Shown here piece by piece: positions 3,894 through 63,871 of a DNA stretch of 64,000 nt. The DNA comes from a bacterium (lineage in GTDB: Bacteria; JAAXHH01), in assembly GCA_963665755.1 (NCBI GenBank), contig OY762445.1:3686590-3750589 (forward strand). The letters are read 5' to 3'. A program made the position numbers and the translations under genes. Position 1 is the stretch's first letter. Each line of letters begins with the position of its first letter. The notes below the pieces were generated by a model. It ran no database searches. It was given only the letters and a program-made list of their open reading frames with translations, and was not told where the DNA came from.

Positions 3894-4853
3894 ATGGTGT
3901 CTGAAGACGTCCTCAGGAGGCAGTTGGAATACGTTCTGCACGGTACCAGCTTCGACCTGGGCAGCAAATTCGAGGGCAAGGTCAGGGACAACTACAGTCT
4001 GGAAGGGAAGCGGATCATCGTGACCACCGATCGAATTTCCGCCTTCGACAGGGTGTTGTGCGCCCTTCCCTTCAAGGGCCAGGTCATCAACCAGACTGCG
4101 GCCTTCTGGTTCGAGCGGACCCGCCAGATAATCGAGAACCACCTGATCGACGTGCCGGATCCGAATGTACTTGTGGCCAGGGAGTGCCGGCTGATTCCCG
4201 TCGAGATGGTCGTCCGCGGCTACCTGACCGGCGTGACTACCACATCGGCGTGGTACCACTATAAACATGGGAATCGCAGTTTCTGCGGACACGCCCTGCC
4301 GGAGGGCATGAAGAAGAACCAGGCCTTCGACCAACCCATCATAACCCCTTCCACCAAGCCGGTACAGGGCGGCCATGACGAGTCCATCTCGGGGGAGGAG
4401 GTGCTTCGAAGAGGTCTCGTGGAAGAACCGGTGTATCGTGAAATGGAGCGAGCGGCCCTGGAACTGTTCGCATTCGGTACGGAAAAGGCCGCCGCCAATA
4501 ATCTCATCCTGGTGGATACCAAGTATGAGTTCGGTCTTTTTGAGGACCGGGTCATGCTGATCGACGAGATCCACACGCCAGACTCTTCCCGGTTCTGGGT
4601 AAAGAACACCTATCAGGATCTTTTCGAACGGGGCGAGGAGCCGGAAAAACTGGACAAGGAATTCGTCCGTGGATGGCTCGCGGACCGCGGTTTTCGTGGT
4701 GACGGTTCCATACCCCCTATCCCGGACGAGGTCAAAATTGAAGCTGCCCGCCGTTACATTAAGGCCTACGAGATGATAACCGCCAGAACCTTCGAAGCCC
4801 GAAACGAGGACGTGTTGCAGCGGATCACCCACCGGCTGCGGAACCCGAACTAG
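3894..4853 (+). CDS. purC: Phosphoribosylaminoimidazole-succinocarboxamide synthase (SAICAR synthetase), long form
   Basis: 319 aa, full-length similarity to PurC (SAICAR synthetase fold). Confidence 0.9.
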   Translation: MVSEDVLRRQLEYVLHGTSFDLGSKFEGKVRDNYSLEGKRIIVTTDRISAFDRVLCALPFKGQVINQTAAFWFERTRQIIENHLIDVPDPNVLVARECRLIPVEMVVRGYLTGVTTTSAWYHYKHGNRSFCGHALPEGMKKNQAFDQPIITPSTKPVQGGHDESISGEEVLRRGLVEEPVYREMERAALELFAFGTEKAAANNLILVDTKYEFGLFEDRVMLIDEIHTPDSSRFWVKNTYQDLFERGEEPEKLDKEFVRGWLADRGFRGDGSIPPIPDEVKIEAARRYIKAYEMITARTFEARNEDVLQRITHRLRNPN

Positions 4854-5066
4854 CAGACCACAGGACACGCTCGGAACGGATGCCATCGTCCGGGATCGTC
4901 CACCGGCTTTGGAACCCGAACTAGCTGACCACAGGATACGCTCGGAACGGATGCCATCGTCCGGGATCGTCCACCGGCTTTGGAACCCGAACTAGCTGAC
5001 CACAGGATACGCTCGGAACGGATGCCATCGTCCGGGATCGTCCACCGGCTTTGGAACCCGAACTAG
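4854..5066. repeat. Tandem direct repeat, 3 x 71 bp, copying the purC 3' end and its downstream sequence
   Basis: Units at 4854-4924, 4925-4995 and 4996-5066. Units 2 and 3 are identical; unit 1 differs at 2 positions. Each unit ends in CCACCGGCTTTGGAACCCGAACTAG, nearly identical to the last 25 nt of purC (CCACCGGCTGCGGAACCCGAACTAG). Confidence 0.9.
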
Positions 5067-5080
5067 CTGATCCCTCTCGT

Positions 5081-42576: not shown

Positions 42577-42672
42577 CTTGCCCGGGTGTCGGCGCCCGCC
42601 GGAATATCCCGGTGAAGCGCGGGGTTGTCTGTCGAAGCTACGGCGATCACCCGGGATCAAAGAGGGAACCGC

Positions 42673-42726
42673 GGCCAGGGCGATCGGGGCGGCCAGGGCG
42701 ATCGGGGCGGCCAGGGCGATCGGGGC
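42673..42726. repeat. Perfect tandem repeat, 3 x 18 bp (GGCCAGGGCGATCGGGGC)
   Basis: Lies in the 175-bp spacer between the convergent paralogous membrane-protein genes. Confidence 0.9.
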
Positions 42727-42751
42727 GGACTGGTGTACAGGGCGGTCCCGG

Positions 42752-51715: not shown

Positions 51716-52471
51716 CTACCTTCCGACTTCGGCGAGGGCCGCCTGTGCCGCCTGGGCCAGGAAACCCATGTCGCCACCAAGCGTGATCCACTGGAATCCC
51801 TCCGCGATGCGCTTCCTGTTGATGTCCATCGTGGTGGAAGCGTAACCACCGGGCACGCCGAGTTCCTTTGCCCGGTCCATGATCCTCTTGACCACCTTTT
51901 CCATGTCGGGGTGCGTCGGCTCACCCACGTAGCCGTGTGACGCCGCGAGATCGTTCGGTCCGACCAGGAACGCGTCGACGCCAGGGGTGGTAAGTATCTC
52001 ATCCAGGTTCTCGACGGCCTCGACGGTTTCGATCTGGACCATGATAAACGTTTCCTCGTTGGCGGTACGTAGGTATTCTGCCAGGTCCTGACCCGAGATG
52101 TTGAGGAAACGGGCGCCCATGCCGCGAATGCCCATGGGCGGATACTTGGCCGCGCGGACCGCATATTCCGCCTGCTCCCGGTTGTTGACCCAGGGGATGA
52201 TCAGGCCCTCCGCACCGATGTCCAGCGCCTTCTTGATGTGCACCATGTCGTTCCAGGGCACGCGGACGAGAGGTGTGACGTCCCGGCCCCGGGTCGTCTG
52301 GATCATGGGATGGAGCATTTCCGTGTTCGTGGGACCGTGTTCGGCGTCGAACCAGATCCAGTCGAAGGGAAGGTTCGCAACCAGTTCCACGATGTCGGTA
52401 CAGGGTGTTCCGACGGATACGCCATAGGTCACTTCGCCATTGCGCAGCTTTTCCTTAAGCCGGTTCTTCAT
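51716..52471 (-). CDS. HpcH/HpaI-family 2-keto-3-deoxy-acid aldolase
   Basis: HpcH/HpaI TIM-barrel with a DAEHGP motif. Confidence 0.82.
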   Translation of the reverse strand: MKNRLKEKLRNGEVTYGVSVGTPCTDIVELVANLPFDWIWFDAEHGPTNTEMLHPMIQTTRGRDVTPLVRVPWNDMVHIKKALDIGAEGLIIPWVNNREQAEYAVRAAKYPPMGIRGMGARFLNISGQDLAEYLRTANEETFIMVQIETVEAVENLDEILTTPGVDAFLVGPNDLAASHGYVGEPTHPDMEKVVKRIMDRAKELGVPGGYASTTMDINRKRIAEGFQWITLGGDMGFLAQAAQAALAEVGR

Positions 52472-52659
52472 GCGGTCTCCTGGATAGGGGGTCGGTCGCG
52501 GCAGACAGCGGATACTGCAGCGGATTTCGCGATTGATTCACACACAGGCCGTAAGTATATTGCAAGCCGTTTTGGATGGAAACCTCAAAATGGAAAGGAA
52601 CGTCTATCATCGGCGGTTTCAGCACGGCCTGTTACCGTCAGTGAGAGGAGTGCCGGCTC

Positions 52660-53514
52660 ATGGCAAAAAACACGCTCATTCCTTCGCTGAAGGCCATCAT
52701 CCTGGCGGTGTCGGCGATCATCTTCGCCGCCACCGCGCTGTCAGTCCATGCGCAGCAGATACCCTACGCACCGACGTCCGAAGGCCAGATTCCGGAAGCC
52801 ATACTCGGCAAGGCCGGCGCGCCGCGCGGCAGCGGCCTGGCTTATTTCGATGAAGATCCGGCTACAATGGGTTACCTCGCCGGACCGGATGGACCGGGTC
52901 CACGGGGCGCCGTCATTTTAATCCATGAGTGGAACGGATTGGTGGACCGCGTGAGACAGGTGGCCGACGCCCTGGCGGCGGAGGGCTACGTCGCCCTGGC
53001 GGCGGATCTGTATTCCGGGCGCACGGGGAGCAACCGCGACGAGAACATGGCGCTCGTTCGGGAAACGCTGGGAGATCTGGACAAGATCATCCGTAACCTG
53101 GACGCGGCGGCGGCCTATCTGAGAGGAAGACCGGATGTAAACGGCAAAATCGGAGCCATGGGCTGGTGCTACGGCGGAGGGGTTGCCCTGAGCTATGCCC
53201 TGGGCGGCGAGAACCACGATGCCACCGCCATTTTCTACGGACGACTGCTCGACGATCCTGAAAGACTCAGTGCCATACACCATGAAATCTATGGCACCTT
53301 CGCCGGACTCGACCGTGGTCCTTCGCCCGAACAGGTGGAACGGTTCGTCGCCGCGCTTCGCGAAGCCGGCGTGGAGAACGACGTGCACATCTACGACGAC
53401 GTCAACCACGGGTTCTGGCTGTACGTCGACCGCGACCCGAAGAACGAGGAACCTGCGCTGGACGCCTGGGAGCGGCTGAAGGACTATCTCAAAAGGACCA
53501 TAGGTAGCGATTGA
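52660..53514 (+). CDS. Secreted dienelactone hydrolase-family protein
   Basis: Signal peptide and an alpha/beta hydrolase fold with a GWCYGG nucleophile elbow. Confidence 0.78.
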   Translation: MAKNTLIPSLKAIILAVSAIIFAATALSVHAQQIPYAPTSEGQIPEAILGKAGAPRGSGLAYFDEDPATMGYLAGPDGPGPRGAVILIHEWNGLVDRVRQVADALAAEGYVALAADLYSGRTGSNRDENMALVRETLGDLDKIIRNLDAAAAYLRGRPDVNGKIGAMGWCYGGGVALSYALGGENHDATAIFYGRLLDDPERLSAIHHEIYGTFAGLDRGPSPEQVERFVAALREAGVENDVHIYDDVNHGFWLYVDRDPKNEEPALDAWERLKDYLKRTIGSD

Positions 53515-54260
53515 TGGATGCTTTCGACCAGGCCATTGCCGAAATCGAGACCTTCGGGTTTACGCTGTTGCCCGACGTATTGACGGCGAATCAGGCAGGA
53601 GCATTGCGCGGAGCGTTGATCCGCGTCGCGGAGGAAAACGGCGAGGCCGGTTACGAGAACCGGGGGGGTACGTCGCTGCTGGTTCGGAACCTGCCCACCC
53701 TGGATCCCGTGTTCCTTCAGATCGTCGACCACCCGGTCGTCCTGCCCATCCTGGAGCGGGTGCTCGACAAGTCCCTGGTGCTGGGCAGCCTGAGTTCCCG
53801 GATCGTCCGGCCCGGAGACGGTTACCAGGACCTCCACAGCGACATTCCGCGTCACATGCTGAACACCGTCTCCCCGGTCATGATGAACACCGTCTGGATG
53901 CTGGATGATTTCAACGCGGAGATCGGCGGCACGCGCATCGTTCCGGGTTCGCACAAGAGCGGATGGGCGGGACCGCCTGATGGCATGGAGGTGCCGCACG
54001 TGTACCAGCCCGAGGCCTCCGCGGGCAGCGTGCTGATTTTCAACGGCCAGTGCTGGCACGGCGGCGGCGCAAATACTTCCGACCGCAGTCGCCACGCTCT
54101 TTTCGGGCACTACCGCAAGTCCATGCTCCTCTTCCAGCTCGACCCGCACGACGGTTTTCGGGACGAGTGGTTCGAAGGACTGTCTTCCCGCCAGAAGCAG
54201 CTCATGCGCATGCAGAAGGGGGTCGGCGCGCGTCATGCGGCGGATGATCACCTGCTGTAG
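53511..54260 (+). CDS. Phytanoyl-CoA dioxygenase family protein
   Basis: PhyH-like fold with HSD ... H iron ligands. Confidence 0.72.
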   Translation: MMDAFDQAIAEIETFGFTLLPDVLTANQAGALRGALIRVAEENGEAGYENRGGTSLLVRNLPTLDPVFLQIVDHPVVLPILERVLDKSLVLGSLSSRIVRPGDGYQDLHSDIPRHMLNTVSPVMMNTVWMLDDFNAEIGGTRIVPGSHKSGWAGPPDGMEVPHVYQPEASAGSVLIFNGQCWHGGGANTSDRSRHALFGHYRKSMLLFQLDPHDGFRDEWFEGLSSRQKQLMRMQKGVGARHAADDHLL

Positions 54261-54349
54261 CCGATCAATGATCCACCTGGTTTGGCCCCAGGCTTCCCCG
54301 TCGCTAAAAACCAATAAGGATGTAGATACCTCGTATATACGGAGTAGTC

Positions 54350-54772
54350 ATGGCGAATTCATCACTATCAGATCAACTGGAAGAGGGAACGCAAGAGGTC
54401 CTGGATTTCTCAAAACTCCGGCAGATTGCCGGCATCGAAGAAGAGGTCCTGCCGGTCGTCGTCCAGGATTCGGCAACGAGGGAAGTACTGATTGTGGCCT
54501 ATGCCAACCGCCTGGCCCTGGAAGAATCCCTGAAGACCCGTATCGCTACCTTCTGGAGCACTTCGCGGAACGAACTGTGGATCAAGGGCGCCACATCGGG
54601 AAACGCCCTGCGGATCGATGAAATCCGCGTCAACTGCGAACAGAACTCCGTGCTATTCCTCGTAACGCCCCAGGGTTCCGGGGCATGTCACACGAAGGAC
54701 AGTGACGGCCGTTACCGCACCGGCTGCTATTACCGCCGTATGAGGTCATCCGGGGAACTGGAATTCGTCTGA
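54350..54772 (+). CDS. hisI: Phosphoribosyl-AMP cyclohydrolase
   Basis: HisI-like, with a WSTSRNELWIKGATSGN core. Confidence 0.8.
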   Translation: MANSSLSDQLEEGTQEVLDFSKLRQIAGIEEEVLPVVVQDSATREVLIVAYANRLALEESLKTRIATFWSTSRNELWIKGATSGNALRIDEIRVNCEQNSVLFLVTPQGSGACHTKDSDGRYRTGCYYRRMRSSGELEFV

Positions 54773-54928
54773 ACGCTTATTCCGAACTCAACGACGCAGA
54801 CCCATTCTGAGATAGGTTTGCGTTACTATTTCGAACACGCCTCCAAAATACCCTGCTTTTTCGGAATATCGTCCAAAATAGTACGAAGGCGACGCCGATT
54901 TTCGAGTACCAGCAGGGACAGTCCCCGC

Positions 54929-55669
54929 CTACCCCCCGAAAGCCTCCATGTAAAGCCTGGTGCGCTCGTTCAGGACGCCGTAGAAGCCGCGGGTCTCCGG
55001 GTCTTCGCTGTCCCGCCAGAAGGTGGCGGGAATCCCGGAATCGTTGGCCAGGGGACCCCGGTCCCGGTGACCGTAGTAGATCTGCGCGGTCTTTCGGACG
55101 GCCCGCGTGGGACGGGTGGTCGCCGTGTGGAGGACCGATACGTTGAAGAGGGCGCAGGTGCCCGCCGGTCCGTGGAGGTCGTAGACGCCCCGCTCCAGTT
55201 GCGCGCTGTTCTCCTTCAGTACGGGCTGCTCGATCCCTTCGGGCGATAGGGAAAAACAGTGGGTGCGCTCATCCACGTCGGTGAAATAGACGATGAGCTG
55301 GATGTAGTCCATGCGCAGGGGATGGTCGAACCAGTGGGCTTTGTCGCGGTGCCACCGCTGGTGGAGCGCGCCCTTGTATGGCCCCATGGACCGCAGCCCG
55401 ATTTCCCCGAAACAGAGCGGACCGCCCATCAATTCCTCTATGGTCCCGTAGATGGCGGGATGGCGGACCAGTCCGTCGAAGGCCGGCGTGGTAACGAGCG
55501 CGTCGTAGTTGGCCTCCTGGTGATGGCCGTAAGGATGCCAGAAATAGGGGAACCGGCGGCGGTCTTCATCGAAGAGATCGCGAAAATGATCCACTTCCTC
55601 GTCCGAGAGGACCTTGCCCAGGTTGATGAATCCGTTCTGACGAAAGAACGCCAGGTCAGTCTGCTTCAT
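54929..55669 (-). CDS. Phytanoyl-CoA dioxygenase family protein
   Basis: PhyH-like 2OG-Fe(II) oxygenase fold. Confidence 0.7.
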   Translation of the reverse strand: MKQTDLAFFRQNGFINLGKVLSDEEVDHFRDLFDEDRRRFPYFWHPYGHHQEANYDALVTTPAFDGLVRHPAIYGTIEELMGGPLCFGEIGLRSMGPYKGALHQRWHRDKAHWFDHPLRMDYIQLIVYFTDVDERTHCFSLSPEGIEQPVLKENSAQLERGVYDLHGPAGTCALFNVSVLHTATTRPTRAVRKTAQIYYGHRDRGPLANDSGIPATFWRDSEDPETRGFYGVLNERTRLYMEAFGG

Positions 55670-55845
55670 GAGAACCTTTCAGGTGAGTATTTGTGCTCCG
55701 AATCCCTTTTCTTCCGAATCCCAATTCTACCACCTGTCCCTGGTTCCTATGAATCCGGTTCTTCCAACTGCCTCTGGTTCTTACGATTGCCCCGGGCATT
55801 TCCAACTTCTTCCGGTGTTTCCATTGGTATCGGATGTCCCATCGC

Positions 55846-56550
55846 TCACACCGACCGCGTTATGCCCCCGTCGACCCGCAGGTTCTGGCCCGTGATATAA
55901 CCCGAACCGGGTGACAGCAGGAATGCGGCCGTTTCCGCGATCTCCTCCACCGTGCCGTAGCGTCCCATTGGAATGCGCGACCTGAATGCTTCCGATTCGG
56001 GGAGACTGTCGATGAATCCCGGCAGGAGATTGTTCATCCGGATGTTGTCGCCGGCGTGGTTGTCGGCGTAGATCTTCGAAAAACTCGCCAGGGCCGCCCT
56101 GAAAGGCGTCGAAACCGGGAAGTAATGCTCCGGTTCGAAGGCGGCGAAGGTGGATATGTTGACGATCGAACCGCCGCCCTGTTCCACCATGATCGGGGTG
56201 ACCAGGCGCGCCATGCGCACCACATTGAGAAACACGATATCCAGTCCCTCGTGCCAGTCTTCGTCCGGTATATCCAGCAGGCTGCCCTTGGGCGGATGGC
56301 CGGTGCTGTTGACGACGCCATCTATCCGGCCGTGGGCTTCCATGGCCAGGTCCACCAGCTTCCGCAGGTCGGCTTCGTCCGTGACGGAGCCCGTCACGCC
56401 GATGCCTCCCAGTTCACCTGCGAGTGATTCCGCCGCTCCGGAGGGAGACAGCAACGCGACGGCCCACCCCTGTCCGGCCAGGTTGCGCGCGATGGCCGCT
56501 CCCATGCCCCTTCCCGCTCCCGTGATGACCGCTACTTGTTGCGAACTCAT
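55846..56550 (-). CDS. SDR-family oxidoreductase
   Basis: TGAGRGMG Rossmann motif. Confidence 0.82.
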   Translation of the reverse strand: MSSQQVAVITGAGRGMGAAIARNLAGQGWAVALLSPSGAAESLAGELGGIGVTGSVTDEADLRKLVDLAMEAHGRIDGVVNSTGHPPKGSLLDIPDEDWHEGLDIVFLNVVRMARLVTPIMVEQGGGSIVNISTFAAFEPEHYFPVSTPFRAALASFSKIYADNHAGDNIRMNNLLPGFIDSLPESEAFRSRIPMGRYGTVEEIAETAAFLLSPGSGYITGQNLRVDGGITRSV

Positions 56551-56780
56551 ACCTCTCCCTTCGGCGTATTGACTGTTTTAAGCCATGCAAGATGTCGCTG
56601 GAACGATTTCGGCTCATCTCCATGCAGATTCGGGATTTGTTGATGAAGACTCACGCTTCGAACATGGTGGTATATAAACAAATGCATTCGGGAATAGTAG
56701 TTTTGTACTTTAATTGTTGACGGTTCACCCCTGCCGTGTTATCTTGGCGTCTCCATTCACTATACCCCAGGAGACGCACC

Positions 56781-58061
56781 ATGACAACCAATTTTGCAAA
56801 CCGCACCTTGTACCACGGCGACAATCTTGCTTTCATGCGGGCCATGAACAGCGAATCCGTGGACCTGATCGCCACGGATCCGCCGTTCAACAAGGGGCGC
56901 GATTTTCACGCCACGCCCGACAGCCTGGCCGCCGGCGCGAAGTTTCAAGATCGATGGTCATGGGAGCGCGATGTACATGAAGAATGGGTGGATCAGATCG
57001 CCGACGATTACCCCCACGTCCTGAACGTCATCCAGGGTTCGCGGTCCAGTTACGGCGATGACATGGGCGCGTTCCTGTGCTTCATGGCCGTGCGACTGAT
57101 TGCCATGCGGCGGCTTTTGAAGCCCACAGGCTCCATTTACCTCCACTGTGACCCTACGGCCTCACACTACTTGAAGGAACTCATGGACGCGGTGTTCGGA
57201 CGCAGGATGTTCAGGAATGAAATTGTGTGGTGCTATGGTTCCGGCGGAGCAAGCAAACAGCACTTTTCGAGAAAACACGACCTTATCCTGTGGTATTCGC
57301 GGGGGGGGGGGGGGGGCTGGACCTTCAACGTCGATGAAATCCGCGAACCCTATTCGTCTCCACACAAATCAATGACGCCCAAGATAATAGGGAACAAGTC
57401 ATATCAAAAGATGCACCCGCTGGGACGGATTCCTTTCGACTGGTGGCAGGTCCCCATAATGACCAACAGTGATAAGAATCGCACGGGCTGGCCGACACAA
57501 AAGCCCCTGCCGTTGTACGCCCGGATCATTAAGGCGTCCAGCAACCCTGGCGACGTGGTCCTGGATCCTTTCGCCGGATGCGCGACGACGCTTGTTGCCG
57601 CCGAGAAACTGGGGCGGCAATGGGTCGGGATCGACATATGGGAAAAGGCGGCCGACGTGGTCCGCGCCAGGCTGGAAAACGAGGTGGGGCTGTTCGGAGA
57701 CGTGACGTTTACCGACCGGCCCCCGGAGCGGACCGACGACGGAGACACGGCCGCCCCGTTCCTGCGGGTCAAAGAACGGGTGGCCGAACCCGACGGCCCC
57801 AGGTGGAGCAGGGCGAAGATGTACGAGTATTTGTTGACGCAGCACGGCCCCCGGTGCCAGGGATGCGACCGGACGTTTGACGATCCCCGTTACCTGGAAT
57901 TGGACCACAACACGCCGCGGGCCGATGGCGGCATAAACCACGTTAGCAACCGCATCCTGCTTTGCGGTCCGTGCAACCGCCTGAAATCCAACACGTACAC
58001 GTTATCGGGGCTTAGACGGGAGAACAAGCGGCGGGGGTTCATGAAGGGAGGGACAGCATGA
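56781..58061 (+). CDS. DNA methyltransferase (beta-class N6/N4, DPPF motif) fused to a C-terminal HNH endonuclease domain
   Basis: TDPPFN (motif IV), LDPFAGCATT (motif I), and a C-terminal HNH motif (LELDHNTPRADGG...NRILLCGPCNRLKSN). RBS AGGAGA lies before the ATG at 56781. Confidence 0.8.
   Translation: MTTNFANRTLYHGDNLAFMRAMNSESVDLIATDPPFNKGRDFHATPDSLAAGAKFQDRWSWERDVHEEWVDQIADDYPHVLNVIQGSRSSYGDDMGAFLCFMAVRLIAMRRLLKPTGSIYLHCDPTASHYLKELMDAVFGRRMFRNEIVWCYGSGGASKQHFSRKHDLILWYSRGGGGGWTFNVDEIREPYSSPHKSMTPKIIGNKSYQKMHPLGRIPFDWWQVPIMTNSDKNRTGWPTQKPLPLYARIIKASSNPGDVVLDPFAGCATTLVAAEKLGRQWVGIDIWEKAADVVRARLENEVGLFGDVTFTDRPPERTDDGDTAAPFLRVKERVAEPDGPRWSRAKMYEYLLTQHGPRCQGCDRTFDDPRYLELDHNTPRADGGINHVSNRILLCGPCNRLKSNTYTLSGLRRENKRRGFMKGGTA
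57301..57316 (+). repeat. Homopolymeric G16 tract inside the methyltransferase-HNH coding sequence (encodes GGGGG)
   Basis: Sixteen consecutive G at 57301-57316. The current length keeps the frame (YSRGGGGGWTF); adding or removing one G would truncate the protein. Confidence 0.9.
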
Positions 58062-58123
58062 ACGATCGCATCGAACGAAAACGCGACGGTGACGATTTCC
58101 AGATATTCCCGGATGATGACGAA

Positions 58124-58522
58124 TCAGAAGACGTTGAAGAAAGCGAAGACGACCAGACAGATCAGACCGAGGAAGAAAGCCAGTAACGCGAGGCGGTTAA
58201 CCCACGTCGTGAAACCTGTTGCCCATCCATCCTTCTTGACGTTGTTCCGGACGTTGGCCGTGGTCTTCTTGTAGCCCATTTCGCTGAACACGTACGATGA
58301 GACTGTCGCGGCCAGGGTAATGACCCAGCAGAATGCAAACCACGTAAACAGGTTTTCGTACTGTGGTTCAGGGTTCATGGGGATATGGATTTTGACATAG
58401 AGCGTAATCGGTACTCCCAGGGCACAGATTTTCAGCAGGGCCTGATCCAGACTGGATCGTTGCTTTTCAGTTTTCTCACGGAGGATCGTTAAGACTTCAT
58501 TTTTTTCAACAGCGTTCATCAT
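58124..58522 (-). CDS. Small membrane protein with two transmembrane helices (hypothetical)
   Basis: Two strongly hydrophobic C-terminal helices. No recognizable family. Confidence 0.4.
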   Translation of the reverse strand: MMNAVEKNEVLTILREKTEKQRSSLDQALLKICALGVPITLYVKIHIPMNPEPQYENLFTWFAFCWVITLAATVSSYVFSEMGYKKTTANVRNNVKKDGWATGFTTWVNRLALLAFFLGLICLVVFAFFNVF

Positions 58523-58530
58523 GGTACCTC

Positions 58531-59193
58531 CTACGCGAACAGTGCATCCATGAAGGAATCCCACGGCCTGGCAACGGAGTCGTCGGTATTGACCGCACTC
58601 CTAATAAAACCCAGGATACCCTTGCCTGTCAAGTCTTCCGCGACCTGGGCGACCACGTTGCCGTCACGCTCCACCGCCCCGATGATCGGGGTCTTGTCGG
58701 TACCACGGCCACGCTTAGAGGTGTTGCCGCCTTCCGGCTCATCGTCCCGCTTGTTGCGTTTGCGGGGCTTGCCGCCGACATACGTTTCATCGGCTTCGAT
58801 AATCCCGGCCAGCATGGGGGCCTGGTCGGATGCCATACCAGCACGGATACGCTGGAGCATGAACCACGCCGTTTTCTGATTCAGGTCCAGGTCGCGGGCC
58901 AGTTGCGGACTGGATATGGACTTCTTGGCATTCACCACCAGGGCAATCGCCGCAAACCACTTCGGCAGGGGGATGTGGGTACCCTGCATGATCGTGCCGG
59001 ACAGGACGTTGAATGAGGACTTGCAATCGTGGCAGTTCCAACGCCCGACACGGCTCTTGAGGTTCGACCGGCGGGCCTTTTCCGTACTGCCGCACAGGGG
59101 ACAGTAGGCGCCGTTTGCAAAGCGGATCGCTTCCAAGTGGTCGATACAGGCTTCTTGTGTCGGGAAGCGGCGGATGGTTTCAAAGAGGTTCAT
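58531..59193 (-). pseudogene. IS1595-family transposase, N-terminal zinc-ribbon/HTH part only (DDE domain missing)
   Basis: MNLFETIRRFPTQEACIDHLEAIRFANGAYCPLCGS...CHDCKSSF is the characteristic IS1595 N-terminus. The ORF stops at about 220 aa, against about 320 aa for an intact transposase. Confidence 0.7.
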
Positions 59194-59472
59194 CGTGTAA
59201 CTCCGTAGAGGGTAAGGGGTTGTTGTCCTTATCTACCCTCAATATACCTCATACGGGACACAATGTCAAGTACAAAACTACTTATTCCGAATGCATTGCA
59301 GTAATCAATGGGAGAATATAGCGTTAATCCGGATAGCACCGATCAGGTTCAGTAGGAGCGAATCCCGGCGATTCATCGGTTCGCGGGTCGGTTTCGAGTC
59401 GCAGACCGCATTGGGCCCCGCGTCGTTATGAACGTTTTCGACCGCAGAAAAACACATACCGCAGGTAAGCAC

Positions 59473-60567
59473 ATGAAGATAACCGGACTGAAAACCTGCT
59501 CCGTCCACGTGAATCACCGGGGAGACTGGACGTTCCTGGCAGTGCATACGGATGAAGGAATAACCGGTTTCGGCGAGGTGAATCCCGGAGGCGCCCGGTC
59601 CGGGAGCGTGGACTTCCTGCAACAAGTCGAACCGGTTCTCGCCGGTCGCGACCCCGGCAGCATCGAACGCATCCTGGCCGAACTCCTGCCTTCACCCGCC
59701 GACCGGTCGAAAGTGATGGCCCTGAGCGCCCTCGACCAGGCCCTGTGGGACATCAAGGGCAAGGCCCTGGGCGTGCCCGTGGCGGACATCATCGGGGGAC
59801 GATGCCATGATGAGATACCCCTCTATGCCAACATCAACCGGGCCACGACCGACCGGACGCCCGCGGGGTTCGCACGGAACGCGGCCGCCGCGGTTTCGGA
59901 TGGATTCGACGCCGTAAAACTGGCCCCTTTCGACGGGATGCCGGGCGGCATCGACCGGGCCTCCGACGCTCGCGAAGGCATTGCCTGCATGGAAGCGGTG
60001 CGTGAATCGATCGGTCCGGACGTCTCCCTGTTGATCGACTGCCACAGCCACTTCACCGCCCGGGGCGGATGCGAGGTATACGATGCCCTCAGGGACCTGG
60101 ACCTTTACTGGTACGAGGAACCCGTGCCCGACGAAGACCACGAGGGCTACCGGGCCATCCGGGATCATATCGACGTGCCGCTGGCCGGAGGCGAAAGCCT
60201 GATGTACCGGGAGGGGTTCTGGCCCGTGGTGGACCGGGGTCTGATGGACGTCATCATGCCGGACGTGACGATCGTGGGCGGACTGTGGGAACTGAAGAAG
60301 GTCGCCGCCATGGCCGAAGGCAGGGGGATTCCCACCGCGCCGCACGGACCCTTCGGTCCCTTGACCATCGCGGCAGGCGTTCAGGCCATGGCCGCCCATC
60401 CCCGCTTTCAGATCCTGGAATACGCCTGGGGGGAGGTGCCGTGGCGGCACGAATTGATCGTACCGCCGGAGCGGATCGAGGACGGCAGGATCCGGGTATC
60501 CGACCGGCCCGGTCTCGGTGTCGAACTGAACATGAAAGCCATCGATGCGTACCGGGTAGTCCGGTAG
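59473..60567 (+). CDS. Enolase-superfamily enzyme (mandelate racemase/muconate-lactonizing enzyme family; dehydratase or dipeptide epimerase)
   Basis: Conserved metal ligands: KLAPFD ... DCHSH ... EEP. Confidence 0.75.
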   Translation: MKITGLKTCSVHVNHRGDWTFLAVHTDEGITGFGEVNPGGARSGSVDFLQQVEPVLAGRDPGSIERILAELLPSPADRSKVMALSALDQALWDIKGKALGVPVADIIGGRCHDEIPLYANINRATTDRTPAGFARNAAAAVSDGFDAVKLAPFDGMPGGIDRASDAREGIACMEAVRESIGPDVSLLIDCHSHFTARGGCEVYDALRDLDLYWYEEPVPDEDHEGYRAIRDHIDVPLAGGESLMYREGFWPVVDRGLMDVIMPDVTIVGGLWELKKVAAMAEGRGIPTAPHGPFGPLTIAAGVQAMAAHPRFQILEYAWGEVPWRHELIVPPERIEDGRIRVSDRPGLGVELNMKAIDAYRVVR

Positions 60568-60589
60568 CCGGCGCGGAAAGGCGTGCCGC

Positions 60590-61315
60590 CTACTTCCCGG
60601 CGATGGCCGCCTTGATCGCTTCCTCGAATTCGGCTTTCGTCTGGTTGTTCACGAATCGTTTCGTGACCTTGCCGTCCCGACCGACCACGAACGTATGGGG
60701 TATGGTCAGCACGTTGCCATAGGCCTGGTAGGTCTTGCGGTCCGATTCCACGATGGGATAGGTAATGTTGAGCTTCTCGACGAAGGGTTCCGTGATGGAA
60801 AGCCCTTCTTCGTCGAGTGAGAGTCCCAGCACCTCGACCCCCTGGTCCCGGTAAGTCCTGAAGAGTTCGTCCAGCACCGGCATTTCCACCAGGCAGGGCG
60901 GGCACCAGGTTGCCCAGAAGTTCACCACGACCACTTTCCCTTTCAATGCGGACAGACTGGCCTCGCCGCCGCCGAGCACCGGCAGGTTGAAATCCGGCGC
61001 GGCGCTTCCCTCTTTCAGCATGAGCCGGGCTTCGATCGCCTTCAACTCGGCCACGACGGCCGCTCGGATGCGGGGAACCATGTCGGGCGTCACCTGGATC
61101 CCCAGTTCCTGGTATACGGCCATGGCCGTTTCCCGACCGAAATTCGGCTTGCCGGCCTTGGATTCGGAGACCTGCTCCATGATGTAGGCGACGATCTTCT
61201 CTTCGTCCCCGGTCAGGGCCTGTTCATCCTGATCCGTGGCCTGCGCCTGCAAGGGAGACAGGATGGCAGCCGCGGCGAAGATGGTGCACAACAGTGTCGT
61301 TGAAATCCTGCTCAC
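60590..61315 (-). CDS. TlpA-family periplasmic thiol:disulfide oxidoreductase
   Basis: Signal peptide; thioredoxin-fold WATWCPPC active site. Confidence 0.85.
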   Translation of the reverse strand: MSRISTTLLCTIFAAAAILSPLQAQATDQDEQALTGDEEKIVAYIMEQVSESKAGKPNFGRETAMAVYQELGIQVTPDMVPRIRAAVVAELKAIEARLMLKEGSAAPDFNLPVLGGGEASLSALKGKVVVVNFWATWCPPCLVEMPVLDELFRTYRDQGVEVLGLSLDEEGLSITEPFVEKLNITYPIVESDRKTYQAYGNVLTIPHTFVVGRDGKVTKRFVNNQTKAEFEEAIKAAIAGK

Positions 61316-61409
61316 GCTATCCTCCAGTACGATGGGTTGTTCTATGTGTTTTCAAGCAAACCGCGTTTGCGCCTTGGATTGCCGTAACGCAGTACCGCGG
61401 ACTCGAAAC

Positions 61410-61763
61410 TCAGGTCTTGCTGCTTGCCTGCTCGGTCTTTTCCGCCTTTTTCAGCAGTTCGTTGAAGTTCATCTCGAAGTTCGCCAGGTCGCTTCGGTCC
61501 ACGATCGTGGCGGCCGCCACGCCCACGGCGATGGCCACTGCTTCCCGGATTTCCGCGCCGTCGGCGCCGTACTTCATGGCTTTCTTCAGATGGCCTTCCA
61601 GGCAGTTGTGACATCCCGCGCTCAGTGATGCGGCTATGGCGATCAGCTCCTTGGTCTTGTTGTCGAGCGCGGTACCCTGGCGGTACGTTTCCCGGTAGAA
61701 ATCGAAGTAGATATCCTTCATGCGTTCTTCCAGCAACTCGTATGACCTCAGAACCTTACCCAC
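61410..61763 (-). CDS. Carboxymuconolactone decarboxylase/AhpD-like family protein
   Basis: AhpD-core CxxC-type motif (SAGCHNCLEGH). Confidence 0.75.
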   Translation of the reverse strand: MGKVLRSYELLEERMKDIYFDFYRETYRQGTALDNKTKELIAIAASLSAGCHNCLEGHLKKAMKYGADGAEIREAVAIAVGVAAATIVDRSDLANFEMNFNELLKKAEKTEQASSKT

Positions 61764-62041
61764 GTATCTTTCCTCCGTAATCCCGTCCGAAGCGGGATGT
61801 CGCCTTCGGTTTCGTTTCCCCTGACCGCAAATACCATGCCGTGTATGACCGGACGCGAACCTGCGAAATCGTATCTAGTTGAGTATTCAATATCCAGCCG
61901 CGAATATTCAAACTTATGCCCGCGGAACTACATGCATACTAAGGCGCGTACCGGTCCTGCGCAATGTGATTCTATGTATCCACCGGCCGGCGACGTGGTT
62001 CTGCCGGGCGGTACCCGGTCACCCAGGCAGGTGATTCGAGC

Positions 62042-63871
62042 CTATTCCGGATGGAAATACCGGTAGACTTTCCGTGCCGCGTCTTTGCCGACGCCCTTGA
62101 CCGCGGTGAGTTCCTCTTCGGTGCACTTTCTGATCTCTTCCACGGACCCGATCGCCATGATCAAATGTTGTTTCCGCTTGGGCCCCACGCCGGGTATGTT
62201 GTCCAATTCGGAGCGGATCATCCGGTTTCCCCGTCGTTGCCGGTGAAATGTGACGGCGAACCGGTGGGCCTCGTCCCTGGCCTGCATGAGCATTTTCAGG
62301 GCGGGGGACGACCTTGGAATGACGATTGGTTCGGATTGGCCAGGACGGAATACTTCCTCCAGCCGCTTCGCAAGGCCGATGACGGGCAGATCGACCAGGC
62401 CGAGTTCGTTCAGGACCTGCCGGACGCTGGAGAGCTGTCCCTTTCCGCCGTCGATGAGCACGAGGTCGGGTAGAGGCTTGCTTTCGTCGATCAACCGCCG
62501 GTAACGCCGGCCGACGACTTCCTGCATCATGGCGAAGTCATTGGGACCGATCACGTCCCTGACCTTGAATTTCCGGTAGTCGGACTTGCGGGGGCGGCCG
62601 TCCACGAAACAGACCATGGAGGCCACCGGGTCCGATCCCTGGATGTTGGAGATGTCGAAAGTCTCGATGCGCCTCGGCGGGACGTCGGTTCCCAGGATCT
62701 CCTGCAGCGCCCCTACCGCGACCGGGATACTGCGGCGGACCCGGGCTTCGGCCCGTTTCAGCGCGTGGGTATTCAACTGCAGTTCGGCGTTCTGTACGGC
62801 CAGCCGGACCATGGCGGCCTTATCGCCGCGTCGGGGTACGGCGATTTCGACTTTGGATCCCCGCTGCCGGGCCGTCCATTCCCGGAACGCCTCGATACCT
62901 TCCGGTTCGCCGGCCAGCAGAATCTCGTCGGGCCAAAGTTGGGCTGCGAGGTAGTACTGGGTCAGAAAGGCGCCCAACGTTTCCGGCTCCGCGGACTCCT
63001 CGGGCGCTGTCAGGAAGAAGTGCTCCTTGCCAATCAGCCTGCCCTCCCTTACCTGCAACACCGCCCCGCAGACGTCGGTTCCGTTCCGCGCGAGCCCGAT
63101 AATGTCCCGGTCCACTTCCCGGTTCGAGAAAGCCCGTTGCCGAATAGTCGTTTTCTCGATGGCGACGATCTGGTCGCGGATGCGACCCGCCAGTTCGAAC
63201 TGCAGTTGCTCCGACGCCCGCGCCATGCGTTCCTTCAGTTGTTTCAGCAGATCCTTCGTCCTGCCGGAGAGAAACCGGCAGACCTGGTCGATGATCTCGC
63301 CGTATCCTTCCTCGCCGATGTGGCCCTTGCACGGTCCGGGACAGCGGTCGATGTAGTAGTCGAGGCAGGGCCGGTCCATGGACGGCCACGCGTTCGCGCT
63401 CGGGCAGGTGCGCAGAGGAAAGACTTTCCGGACCAGGTCGATGGTCCTGCGCATGGCCTTCACGTTGGTGTAGGGTCCGAAGTACCTGGCCCCGTCCTGC
63501 CGGACGTTGCGCGTGACCACGACCCTGGGGTAGGTCTCGTTGGTCAGCATGATGAAGGGAAAGGACTTGTCGTCGCGCAGCATCACATTGTATCGCGGCC
63601 TGTGCTCCTTGATGAGGTGGTCTTCGAGCAGCAGTGCGTCGGCTTCCGATTCGGTCACAACGTAGTCGAAATCATGAATCCGGCTGGCCAGGGCGACCGA
63701 TTTCGGCGCTGTGTGGCGGTTTTTCTGGAAGTACGAGCGGATCCGCTGGCGCAGCGCGCGCGTTTTGCCCACGTAGATGATGCGCGAACGGGTGTCTTTC
63801 ATCAAGTACACGCCCGGCTCGCCGGGCAGCGACTTGAGTTTTTCTTCAATTTCCGTCGGTTTCGCAGCCAT
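62042..63871 (-). CDS. uvrC: Excinuclease ABC subunit C
   Basis: GIY-YIG N-terminus (GVYLMKD...IIYVGK), a UvrBC-interaction region, and RNase H-like and HhH C-terminal domains. Start placed at MAAKPTEIEE. Confidence 0.92.
   Translation of the reverse strand: MAAKPTEIEEKLKSLPGEPGVYLMKDTRSRIIYVGKTRALRQRIRSYFQKNRHTAPKSVALASRIHDFDYVVTESEADALLLEDHLIKEHRPRYNVMLRDDKSFPFIMLTNETYPRVVVTRNVRQDGARYFGPYTNVKAMRRTIDLVRKVFPLRTCPSANAWPSMDRPCLDYYIDRCPGPCKGHIGEEGYGEIIDQVCRFLSGRTKDLLKQLKERMARASEQLQFELAGRIRDQIVAIEKTTIRQRAFSNREVDRDIIGLARNGTDVCGAVLQVREGRLIGKEHFFLTAPEESAEPETLGAFLTQYYLAAQLWPDEILLAGEPEGIEAFREWTARQRGSKVEIAVPRRGDKAAMVRLAVQNAELQLNTHALKRAEARVRRSIPVAVGALQEILGTDVPPRRIETFDISNIQGSDPVASMVCFVDGRPRKSDYRKFKVRDVIGPNDFAMMQEVVGRRYRRLIDESKPLPDLVLIDGGKGQLSSVRQVLNELGLVDLPVIGLAKRLEEVFRPGQSEPIVIPRSSPALKMLMQARDEAHRFAVTFHRQRRGNRMIRSELDNIPGVGPKRKQHLIMAIGSVEEIRKCTEEELTAVKGVGKDAARKVYRYFHPE

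What the first reader, a model, noticed from the sequence alone, without database searches (positions are those of the whole stretch)
57301..57316. G16 homopolymer inside the methyltransferase-HNH ORF: candidate phase-variable switch
Sixteen consecutive G encode GGGGG in an otherwise conserved stretch (LILWYSR-GGGGG-WTFNVDE). Runs of this length are highly prone to slipped-strand mispairing, and a change of one G would truncate the enzyme before its motif I and HNH domain. Homopolymer-driven ON/OFF switching of DNA methyltransferases, known as phasevarions, is established in host-adapted pathogens but unusual in a high-GC environmental-type genome. Here it would toggle both a methylase and a fused nuclease.
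Basis: partly seen in the sequence, partly recalled or inferred. Interest (0 to 1): 0.65.

Follow-up and report, generated by a model that had tools for sequence, protein, structure and literature searches.

The report
Slippery G-run switch in symbiont methylase-nuclease
A run of 16 G's inside a mobile DNA-methylase/nuclease gene of a sponge-associated bacterium differs in length between almost identical genomes, leaving the gene intact in one and broken in another, as expected of a mutational on/off switch so far known mainly from pathogens.

Summary
The G16 run at 57301-57316 is real. The next longest homopolymer in the 64 kb window is 7 nt. It lies in frame (R-GGGGG-W) in a 426-aa beta-class DNA methyltransferase fused to a C-terminal HNH nuclease.

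The phase-variation reading is supported by comparison, not by reads:
- A 3.9-Mb contig that is 99.96% identical over 10.7 kb carries G14 at the same site. Its gene is split into 184-aa and 229-aa pieces (OFF). The window copy is ON.
- A homolog with 74% protein identity has G9 at the same codons.
- A second allele at the same chromosomal site has a different target-recognition region and its own G-run just before motif I. Three Illumina assemblies show G10, G11 and G11, all out of frame.
- In 80 homologs from genomes of many phyla, several carrying sponge-symbiont names, G/C runs of 9 nt or more are about 57-fold enriched just after the start codon, in both ON and OFF frames.

The gene rides a 2.6-kb IS1595-type element with an 8-bp target duplication. 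Five related strains have an empty site.

A phasevarion (regulon control) is untested. The host is a probable sponge-associated Gemmatimonadota bacterium, not a free-living environmental one. This is a new member of a known kind.

The parts
57301..57316 (+). G16 homopolymer, the proposed slipped-strand switch. In-frame (ON) lengths are 10, 13, 16 and 19.
   Evidence: Searches show the sequence and codons. The near-identical contig L092 has G14 (OFF). The homolog L096 has G9 at the same codons.
56781..58061 (+). Fusion gene for a DNA methyltransferase and an HNH nuclease (426 aa from the ATG). AGGAG lies 7 nt upstream of the ATG. The first possible start is GTG at 56736.
   Evidence: Pfam PF01555 1.1e-47 and PF01844 7.6e-09. 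PADLOC MTase_II 9e-61. Homologs start at the equivalent Met.
56877..56888 (+). Methyltransferase motif IV, DPPF (catalytic), upstream of the tract.
   Evidence: D48, P49, P50 and F51 are invariant in 35 sequences.
57564..57590 (+). Methyltransferase motif I, DPFAGCATT (AdoMet binding), downstream of the tract and lost in OFF variants.
   Evidence: D277, P278, F279, G281, C282, A283 and T284 are invariant. The OFF product of L092 ends before this motif.
57855..57992 (+). HNH nuclease domain with two Cys pairs (CQGC and CGPC) and the D-H...N-H...N motif.
   Evidence: Pfam HNH covers residues 374-419. C374, C377, D390, H391, N401, H402, C410, C413 and N414 are invariant.
57236..57479 (+). Variable target-recognition region. 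It is replaced by unrelated sequence in the second allele, and the tract lies inside it near its 5' edge.
   Evidence: Similarity between the window and L084/L093-L095 stops at 57235 and resumes at 57480.
56689..56710 (+). Left terminal inverted repeat of the IS1595-type element (CGGGAATAGTAGTTTTGTACTT).
   Evidence: The insertion boundary was defined against the empty site in L081.
59268..59289 (-). Right terminal inverted repeat of the element.
56681..56688 (.). Left copy of the 8-bp target-site duplication AATGCATT. The right copy is at 59290-59297.
   Evidence: The empty-site contig L081 has one copy, which matches both junctions (8-nt overlap of the two BLAST segments).
58531..59193 (-). 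IS1595-family transposase remnant (220 aa). The Zn-ribbon and the first half of the DDE domain are present. The rest was lost through a 222-nt internal deletion.
   Evidence: Pfam PF12760 and PF12762 positions 1-78 of 153. NCBIfam transpos_IS1595 5.8e-34. An intact 296-aa version is in L093.
58124..58564 (-). Small ORF with no family match (146 aa as listed here, called as 131-132 aa in related contigs). It travels with the element.
   Evidence: No match in Pfam, NCBIfam or PADLOC. Present in L092-L095.
56717..56745 (+). Promoter-like site (TTGACG, 17 nt, TATCTT, with TG) just inside the left repeat, upstream of the methylase gene.
   Evidence: Consensus scan only.

Best explanation
The G16 run is a hypermutable tract inside a single-chain methyltransferase-HNH gene, which is probably a one-polypeptide restriction-modification enzyme. 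The gene is carried by an IS1595-type transposable element in a probable sponge-associated Gemmatimonadota bacterium.

Proposed mechanism. Slipped-strand mispairing during replication adds or removes G's.
- Lengths of 10, 13, 16 or 19 keep the frame and only change the number of glycines in a surface loop after motif VIII. The enzyme is ON.
- Any other length shifts the frame and terminates within about 7-24 codons, before the target-recognition region, the AdoMet-binding motif I and the HNH domain. Methylase and nuclease are then lost together, so the enzyme is OFF.
- Because both activities sit on one polypeptide, switching OFF is not expected to leave a nuclease without its protecting methylase. 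The switch can therefore be tolerated.

The population would then hold a mixture of cells with and without this specificity. I interpret this as bet-hedging over a costly or risky defence and DNA-uptake barrier, possibly with epigenetic side effects.

Shown here: the tract, its frame, the length difference between near-identical genomes, the natural ON and OFF forms, a second allele with its own variable tract, recurrence of tracts in the family, and mobility of the element.

Inferred: that the switching happens within a lineage and is reversible, that the HNH domain restricts unmethylated DNA, and what the switching is for.
For: 1. Length polymorphism with a frame consequence. L092 (ENA ERZ25084387 ctg36563c, 3.92 Mb) is 99.96% identical to window 52371-63061. 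The only differences are a C3/C2 intergenic indel, one synonymous SNP, and G14 versus G16. Its gene is called as 184-aa and 229-aa pieces.

2. The same site in a homolog with 74% protein identity (L096, encoding P0001) reads CGG GGG GGG GCA, a G9 run in frame. Three lengths are therefore seen at one site.

3. A second allele sits at the same chromosomal junction (L084) and is also found in L093-L095. Its target-recognition region is unrelated, and it has its own G-run directly before motif I: G10, G11 and G11 in MEGAHIT, SPAdes and Logan assemblies, and at least 11 at the end of contig L084. The in-frame lengths would be 9 or 12.

4. The genes are not decaying. Between the two alleles the N-terminal module has 28 nucleotide differences. 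These fall in 24 synonymous codons and 1 nonsynonymous codon. The catalytic residues of both domains are invariant in 35 homologs.

5. Recurrence in the family. In 80 homologous loci, the 90 nt around the start codon (7.2 kb in total) hold 5 G/C runs of 9 nt or more, plus 2 runs of 8 nt. The 910 kb of flanks hold 11 runs of 9 nt or more. This is a 57-fold enrichment, Fisher p = 1.2e-07. Two of the seven are in frame and five are out of frame.

6. Other long tracts in those loci also lie in DNA methylase genes: G15 in a DUF1156 methylase and C15 at the 5' end of another N6_N4_Mtase.

7. The tract encodes a low-confidence loop after a beta-strand, so in-frame length changes should be tolerated. 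A solved relative, 9c3u, is 2 residues shorter at this point.

8. There is a precedent. The poly-G-controlled single-gene Type IIG enzyme Cj0031 of Campylobacter jejuni changes methylation and phage restriction when it switches (PMC4889913).
Against: - No reads were available, so heterogeneity within one population and reversibility are not shown.
- L092 is a Mb-scale contig of a style that looks like a long-read assembly, and the window probably is too. That style is my reading of the contig names, not a tool result. If so, calls of 14-16-nt homopolymers can be wrong, and part of the G14/G16 difference could be technical.
- Most observed copies are OFF: L092, all three fully sequenced copies of the second allele, and 5 of 7 homologs with 5' tracts. 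That pattern is also what gradual inactivation of a selfish gene would give.
- The transposase in the window is deleted, so this copy may be a relic.
- Restriction by the HNH domain and the methylated motif are unknown.
- No described family or solved structure with this exact architecture turned up in the searches run here.
Confidence: 0.78

Rival explanations
1. Technical artefact. The run, or only its exact length, would be produced by sequencing or assembly (poly-G from two-colour chemistry, or homopolymer miscalls in long-read consensus). In that case there is no biological length variation.
For: Homopolymers of 14-16 nt are the hardest sequence for long-read consensus. This rests on general knowledge, not on a test here. 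L092 and probably the window come from Mb-scale contigs of that style. One of the two other differences between them is also a homopolymer indel, C3/C2.
Against: - The tract lies in the middle of Mb-scale contigs in two independent assemblies. Its flanks are colinear with homologs on both sides.
- A G9 run sits at the same codons in an unrelated scaffold.
- The second allele differs between G10 and G11 in three short-read assemblies made by three different assemblers.
- The difference is 2 nt, not 1. All runs of 7 nt or shorter in the 10.7 kb agree except one.
- Tracts recur at gene starts in many genomes.
Confidence: 0.1
2. Mutational decay without function. The methylase-HNH gene would be a selfish cargo of a dying IS element. 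The homopolymer would be a fragile site where inactivating frameshifts pile up irreversibly, not a selected switch.
For: The transposase in the window has a 222-nt deletion. L092 and every fully sequenced copy of the second allele are out of frame. Five of seven homologs with a 5' tract are out of frame. Many related strains lack the element altogether.
Against: - A pure G16 run does not arise by neutral drift in a 60% G+C genome. The expectation is about 1e-4 per window.
- Tracts arose at three or more different positions in this family.
- Apart from the tract, the OFF copies have no other lesion. The only other difference inside the gene between the window and L092 is one synonymous SNP.
- Differences between the two alleles in the N-terminal module are 24 synonymous codons to 1 nonsynonymous.
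- The window copy itself is in frame.
Confidence: 0.1
3. Structural glycine linker. The run would be kept because a flexible poly-Gly loop is useful to the enzyme, and its length at the DNA level would be incidental.
For: The tract is in frame and encodes a loop. Homologs have G-rich loops there, RGGAH and RDGGY.
Against: - All five Gly codons use GGG or GGC, forming one uninterrupted G-run. Selection for glycine alone would allow GGN codons, as in P0002, which uses GAC GGT GGG.
- Homologous loops are 2 residues shorter.
- A natural out-of-frame variant exists.
- Other family members encode poly-Pro from C-runs at a different place, so what is shared is the DNA tract and not the peptide.
Confidence: 0.02

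Closest known systems
Cj0031/Cj0032 of Campylobacter jejuni NCTC11168: a phase-variable Type IIG restriction-modification enzyme controlled by an intragenic poly-G tract (PMC4889913)
   Same: A single gene encodes both nuclease and methyltransferase. A G/C homopolymer inside the reading frame switches the whole enzyme ON or OFF, and ON and OFF variants occur naturally.
   Different: - By general knowledge of the MmeI-like Type IIG class, Cj0031 has a different nuclease fold at the N-terminus and a gamma-class methylase. Here the order is a beta-class methylase (motif IV before motif I) followed by a C-terminal HNH domain.
- The tract here is much longer. The modal poly-G/C length in C. jejuni is 9 (PMC3401435 abstract).
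- The host genome is 60% G+C and probably belongs to a sponge symbiont.
- The gene is cargo of an IS1595-type element.
- Methylation, restriction and switching are demonstrated for Cj0031 and only inferred here.
Phasevarions: phase-variable Type III mod and Type I hsd methyltransferases of Haemophilus, Neisseria, Helicobacter, Streptococcus suis and Actinobacillus (PMC5909438, PMC7383803)
   Same: Changes in the length of a simple sequence repeat in a methyltransferase ORF cause random ON/OFF switching. The organisms are host-adapted.
   Different: A phasevarion is defined by a regulon that changes with methylation state, and that is not tested here. In many mod genes the repeats are tetra- or pentanucleotides. 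Those enzymes are multi-subunit Type I or Type III systems, not a methylase-HNH fusion.
Homopolymer-bearing restriction-modification genes of Helicobacter pylori (PMC3936762)
   Same: That paper's full text holds the terms homopolymeric, phasevarion and REBASE. That many H. pylori R-M genes carry G/C runs, are found both in frame and out of frame in different strains, and exchange specificity regions between alleles is my own recollection, not checked here. Those are the features shared with this locus.
   Different: The phylum and niche differ. Here the gene is borne on a transposon, and close relatives (50-69% identity) occur in many bacterial phyla and in Nitrososphaerales/Thaumarchaeota genomes.
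IS1595-family elements with passenger genes (Siguier, Gagnevin and Chandler 2009, Res Microbiol 160:232; seen only as a reference entry, otherwise from my own knowledge)
   Same: A transposase with an N-terminal Zn-ribbon and a DDE domain, an 8-bp target duplication, short terminal inverted repeats, and cargo between the ends.
   Different: I found no record of this cargo, a methylase-HNH gene with a homopolymer switch, in the papers searched. The transposase of the window copy is truncated.

Membership tests
Simple-sequence-repeat contingency locus (phase-variable gene) | An uninterrupted repeat tract in the ORF or promoter, long enough for slippage (about 7-9 nt or more for G/C runs) | tested here: met
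   G16 at 57301-57316, inside the ORF.
Simple-sequence-repeat contingency locus (phase-variable gene) | Tract length differs between otherwise near-identical genomes | tested here: met
   G16 in the window versus G14 in L092, at 99.96% identity over 10.7 kb. The second allele shows G10 versus G11.
Simple-sequence-repeat contingency locus (phase-variable gene) | Length changes move the gene between an intact and a truncated reading frame | tested here: met
   The window encodes 426 aa. L092 encodes 184 aa ending ...RGGGGLDLQRR*, plus a separate 229-aa call.
Simple-sequence-repeat contingency locus (phase-variable gene) | The gene is otherwise maintained by selection and is not a pseudogene | tested here: met
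   Between the alleles the N-terminal module differs at 24 synonymous codons and 1 nonsynonymous codon. Catalytic residues are invariant.
Simple-sequence-repeat contingency locus (phase-variable gene) | High-frequency, reversible switching within a clonal population | not testable with these tools
   This needs read-level tract counts or culture experiments. No reads were accessible.
Phasevarion | Genome-wide methylation of a specific motif is present in ON cells and absent in OFF cells | not testable with these tools
   No methylome data.
Phasevarion | A set of genes changes expression with the methylase state | not testable with these tools
   No expression data.
Beta-class N6-adenine/N4-cytosine DNA methyltransferase (Pfam PF01555) | A profile match above the curated cut-off, with motif IV (D/S)PP(Y/F) placed N-terminal to motif I FxGxG | tested here: met
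   163 bits against a cut-off of 26.7. DPPF is at residues 48-51 and DPFAGCATT at 277-285. Solved relatives include MboIIA, RsrI and CcrM.
HNH nuclease (Pfam PF01844) | A profile match above the cut-off, with the catalytic His/Asn residues and the zinc-binding Cys pairs | tested here: met
   36 bits against a cut-off of 21.4. D390, H391, N401, H402, N414, C374, C377, C410 and C413 are invariant. Catalysis was not tested.
Type IIG single-chain restriction-modification enzymes (MmeI/Cj0031 type) | Nuclease and methylase in one polypeptide | tested here: met
   Both domains lie in one ORF.
Type IIG single-chain restriction-modification enzymes (MmeI/Cj0031 type) | An N-terminal PD-(D/E)XK-type nuclease followed by a gamma-class methylase and a C-terminal target-recognition domain (definition from general knowledge) | tested here: not met
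   The order here is a beta-class methylase with an internal recognition region, then a C-terminal HNH domain. It works like this class but is not a member.
IS1595-family transposable element | A transposase with an N-terminal Zn-ribbon and the IS1595 DDE domain | tested here: met
   PF12760 and PF12762. NF033547 at 117.8 bits against a cut-off of 75. The copy in the window is truncated, and an intact 296-aa copy is in L093.
IS1595-family transposable element | Terminal inverted repeats and an 8-bp target-site duplication, with an empty site in relatives | tested here: met
   Imperfect repeats of 22 nt, the duplication AATGCATT, and an empty site in L081. L087-L090 lack the methylase and transposase genes at this position. 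A second insertion site is seen in L093.

The most novel reading that the evidence does not exclude
The G16 tract may be one visible instance of a system spread across a microbiome. In this reading, IS1595-borne single-chain methylase-HNH enzymes move between bacterial phyla and archaea living in sponges. They exchange target-recognition regions by recombination between their highly conserved flanks. They have repeatedly evolved G/C homopolymer switches, either just after the start codon or inside the gene.

The OFF phase would let the element enter and persist in a new, unmethylated genome without killing it. Later ON switching would give a stochastic and diversifying barrier to phage and foreign DNA, or an epigenetic state. 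That would extend contingency-locus biology from pathogens to high-G+C mutualists, and would link it to transposon-mediated horizontal spread of restriction-modification genes.
Probability: 0.3. Interest if true: 0.75.

Novelty: new member of a known kind. Interest (0 to 1): 0.6.

Why it matters
Phase-variable DNA methyltransferases are studied almost only in host-adapted pathogens. My literature searches found no paper that links them to sponge symbionts or to methylase-HNH fusions.

Here the signature appears in a probable sponge-associated Gemmatimonadota bacterium. It recurs in homologs from Dehalococcoidia, Paracoccaceae, Acidimicrobiales and other genomes.

Sponge microbiomes are reported to be enriched in restriction-modification systems and in lateral gene transfer (PMC8163846). 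Stochastic switching of mobile, specificity-swapping enzymes would add a layer to how these dense, phage-exposed communities balance defence against gene flow.

The idea is cheaply testable. Many near-identical complete genomes of this species are public. Their contig names suggest long-read data. If so, reads spanning the tract could report tract length and, where kinetic data were kept, adenine methylation as well.

Tried and rejected
- Exact-product look-ups of the 441-aa and 426-aa proteins found nothing. The reason became clear later: the copy on record (L092) is split by the G14 frameshift.
- The look-up of the neighbouring 379-aa enolase-like ORF failed because I had chosen the wrong start. 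The homolog is 364 aa.
- Two scans of JGI metagenome contigs, one with both tract flanks and one with the right flank only, found no match. This allele was not found in that collection.
- A protein search with a 99-aa fragment around the tract returned only 2 distant hits and was wasted. Repeating it with the 261-aa C-terminal part found the decisive P0211.
- The source genome is not among the GTDB representative genomes. The best match there was 69% identical.
- Viral contigs hold only distant relatives, 41% identity or less over the full length, so I dropped a phage origin for the close family.
- PADLOC names only generic Type II and Type III methylases, and NCBIfam matches fall below their cut-offs. 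No curated family describes the fusion.
- I considered a poly-G sequencing artefact, a structural Gly linker and simple pseudogene decay. All three were rejected as the main explanation (see the rival explanations).
- I did not run a fold search. The model was only moderately confident (mean pLDDT 69), and the question did not depend on it.
Full report
**1. The observation**

Window positions 57301-57316 are sixteen uninterrupted G's, with a C on each side. The window is 60.2% G+C. No other homopolymer exceeds 7 nt, and G runs of length 5, 6 and 7 occur 30, 8 and 1 times. Under independent bases the expected number of G16 runs is about 1.3e-4 per window. Tandem Repeats Finder reports it as the only mononucleotide array.

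The run lies in the ORF 56736-58061 (+). The real start is most likely the ATG at 56781, because AGGAG sits 7 nt upstream and homologs begin there. The protein matches Pfam N6_N4_Mtase (residues 42-307, E = 1.1e-47) and HNH (residues 374-419, E = 7.6e-09).

The codons read CGG GGG GGG GGG GGG GGC TGG, which is R-GGGGG-W, so the gene is intact in the window.

**2. Where the tract sits in the protein**

I aligned the protein with 34 homologs. The N-terminal 165 residues, which include motif IV (DPPF), are very conserved. So are the C-terminal 190 residues, which include motif I (DPFAGCATT), a conserved linker and the HNH domain with two Cys pairs. The segment between them varies freely, as expected of a target-recognition region.

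The tract lies at the start of this variable segment, right after the strand ...HDLILWYS.
- The closest homologs have RGGAH or RDGGY there, so the window loop is 2 residues longer.
- A solved relative, 9c3u, is also 2 residues shorter at this point.
- The AlphaFold model (mean pLDDT 69) places residues 190-194 in a coil with pLDDT below 50, after strand 183-188.

In-frame changes of tract length should therefore be harmless. Out-of-frame changes remove the recognition region, motif I and the HNH domain.

**3. Organism and genomic setting**

Exact copies of neighbouring window proteins occur on several 3.5-4.2-Mb contigs. Members of the same 90%-identity clusters are named Gemmatimonadota MAG proteins by NCBI.

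Relatives of the methylase-HNH protein in species-representative genomes are 47-69% identical. They come from Dehalococcoidia, Gammaproteobacteria, Alphaproteobacteria, Acidobacteriota, Nitrospira, Acidimicrobiales and Nitrososphaerales/Thaumarchaeota MAGs. Several carry sponge-symbiont names such as Candidatus Poriferisodalaceae and Porisulfidus. The host is thus very probably a sponge-associated, host-adapted bacterium, not a free-living one.

A strain that is 98-99% identical (L081) lacks window positions 56689-59289. The two BLAST segments overlap by 8 nt, which defines the target duplication AATGCATT. The inserted 2,601 bp contains:
- imperfect 22-nt terminal inverted repeats;
- the methylase-HNH gene;
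- a small ORF with no family match;
- an IS1595-family transposase remnant on the other strand.

Four further strains (L087-L090) also have no element between the two flanking genes.

Another copy of the element, L093, sits in a different flank and has an intact 296-aa transposase. The window copy has lost 222 nt between short repeats.

In 23 of the 80 homologous loci an IS1595 transposase lies next to the methylase-HNH gene, and most of these are full length at about 300 aa. The gene is therefore transposon cargo. That accounts for its spread across phyla.

**4.

A protein search with the C-terminal 261 residues found P0211. This is a 229-aa product, 100% identical to the window protein, that starts at the first Met after the tract. 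Its contig, L092 (ENA ERZ25084387 ctg36563c, 3,917,282 nt), matches window 52371-63061 at 99.96% identity. There are three differences in 10.7 kb:
- a C3/C2 intergenic indel;
- a synonymous T/G change in the methylase gene;
- the tract, G14 in L092 against G16 in the window.

In L092 the gene is called as 184 aa (...LILWYSRGGGGLDLQRR*) plus 229 aa. This is a natural OFF variant of the ON copy in the window.

The homolog P0001 is 74% identical at the protein level. At the same codons, on contig L096, it reads CGG GGG GGG GCA, a G9 run in frame. P0002 uses mixed codons (GAC GGT GGG) and has no run.

**5. A second allele with its own tract**

Contig L084 has the same chromosomal junction and the same inverted repeat. 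Its N-terminal module aligns with the window up to position 57235. Beyond that point its recognition region is unrelated, and the contig ends in a G-run.

Three short-read contigs carry this allele in full. The run lies in ...ASSER-Gn-VVLDPFAGCATT, directly before motif I.

| Contig | Assembly | Tract | Product ends |
|---|---|---|---|
| L093 | MEGAHIT-style | G10 | SERGGGSP* |
| L094 | SPAdes-style | G11 | SERGGG* |
| L095 | Logan | G11 | SERGGG* |

In-frame lengths would be 9 or 12, so all three copies are OFF.

Between the two alleles the N-terminal module has 28 nucleotide differences. These fall in 24 synonymous codons and 1 nonsynonymous codon. The 163 codons from motif I to the stop are identical at the DNA level. 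These are functional genes that exchange their middle part. They are not decaying pseudogenes.

**6. Recurrence in the family**

In the 80 homologous loci there are 16 G/C runs of 9 nt or more.
- Five lie in the 90 nt around the start of the methylase-HNH gene (7.2 kb in total).
- Eleven lie in the 910 kb of flanks. This is a 57-fold enrichment, Fisher p = 1.2e-07, Poisson p = 4e-08.
- Two further runs of 8 nt lie in the same 5' zone.

All seven runs sit a few codons after the start codon. In four loci the run begins exactly 16 nt after the A of the ATG.
- In frame: L011 (C13) and L023 (G9).
- Out of frame, with no alternative canonical start before the conserved NRTLFHGDN: L070 (C15), L072 (C9), L075 (C10), L054 (C8) and L064 (C8).

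Among the flank runs, G15 in L064 lies in frame inside a DUF1156 DNA methylase. C15 in L079 lies at the 5' end of another N6_N4_Mtase gene. C22 in L070 lies next to a JAB/ThiF gene.

**7. Interpretation**

The simplest account is a slipped-strand switch of a single-chain methylase-nuclease. For the window allele, lengths 10, 13, 16 and 19 are ON and all other lengths are OFF. Because methylase and nuclease are lost together, switching OFF should be tolerated.

The closest functional precedent is the poly-G-controlled Type IIG enzyme Cj0031 of C. jejuni. Its switching alters methylation, transcripts and phage restriction (PMC4889913). The enzyme here has a different architecture, a beta-class methylase followed by a C-terminal HNH domain. 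It therefore works like that class without belonging to it.

Whether a regulon is controlled, which would make it a phasevarion (PMC5909438, PMC7383803), cannot be judged here. My preferred biological role is bet-hedging over a costly or risky barrier in a phage-rich, transfer-prone community. Sponge symbionts are reported to be enriched in restriction-modification systems and in laterally transferred genes (PMC8163846). A possible extra role is that OFF copies can establish after transposition or transfer into unmethylated genomes. That last idea is speculation.

**8. Caveats**

- No reads were accessible, so heterogeneity within a sample and reversibility are inferred.
- L092, and probably the window, look like long-read contigs, judging by contig names. 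The exact lengths 14 and 16 could therefore carry error.
- The G10/G11 difference in short-read assemblies and the G9 at the same site elsewhere make a purely technical explanation unlikely.
- Most observed copies are OFF, which also fits ongoing inactivation. The synonymous-only divergence and the intact window copy argue against that as the main explanation.

**9. Verdict**

The kind is known: a homopolymer-switched restriction-modification or methylase gene. The instance is new in lineage, enzyme architecture and mobile context. The family-wide recurrence in genomes of many phyla, several with sponge-symbiont names, is the most interesting lead.

Noticed in passing
window 56681-59297: The methylase-HNH gene is cargo of a 2,601-bp IS1595-type element with 22-nt inverted repeats and an 8-bp palindromic target duplication, AATGCATT. 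The element is absent from five closely related strains (L081, L087-L090) and present at a second site in L093.
   Followed up: yes
window 58574-58579, compared with L093 1707-1928: The transposase of the window copy has lost 222 nt between short imperfect repeats, leaving a 220-aa remnant. The L093 copy is intact at 296 aa.
   Followed up: yes
L084 1-320; L093 673-682; L094 809-819; L095 521-531 (equivalent to about window 57546-57556): A second allele has an unrelated target-recognition region between identical or near-identical flanks, and a separate poly-G tract (G10 or G11, all out of frame) just before motif I. This suggests swapping of the recognition region by recombination.
   Followed up: yes
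L011 5987-5999; L023 5985-5993; L070 5983-5997; L072 5991-5999; L075 5979-5988; L054 794-801; L064 5991-5998: Homologs in other phyla carry poly-C or poly-G runs of 8-15 nt a few codons after the start codon. In L070, L072, L075 and L064 the run begins exactly 16 nt after the A of the ATG. Two are in frame and five are out of frame.
   Followed up: partly
L064 12608-12622; L079 13002-13016; L070 1477-1498: Other long tracts lie near the homologs: G15 in frame in a DUF1156 DNA methylase, C15 at the 5' end of a second N6_N4_Mtase gene, and C22 beside a JAB/ThiF (E1-like) gene. Long G/C runs in these genomes seem to concentrate in methylase and defence genes.
   Followed up: partly
L089 5132-6993; L090 9457-11396 (between the genes corresponding to window 52660-53514 and 53511-54260): Some related strains carry a different system, an Eco29kI-type endonuclease with an N6_N4 methylase, inserted a few kb from the element's site. 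L090 and L091 also have a nucleotidyltransferase/HepT-like gene inserted next to the PhyH gene. This stretch of chromosome looks like a hotspot for defence-gene insertion.
   Followed up: no
P0095 and P0100 (alignment): Some database homologs are annotated as starting at the conserved internal Met (MNSESVDL...). They therefore lack the conserved first 36 or so residues. These may be gene calls on copies whose 5' tract is out of frame.
   Followed up: no
window 4822-5070: A tandem repeat of a 71-bp unit, 3.5 copies, 96% matches.
   Followed up: no
window 42671-42728: A perfect tandem repeat of an 18-bp unit, 3.2 copies.
   Followed up: no
window 59241-59269 (-) and 56717-56745 (+): Promoter-like hexamer pairs lie just inside each inverted repeat and face inward towards the transposase and the methylase genes. 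The transposase-side pair matches 11 of 12 consensus positions.
   Followed up: no
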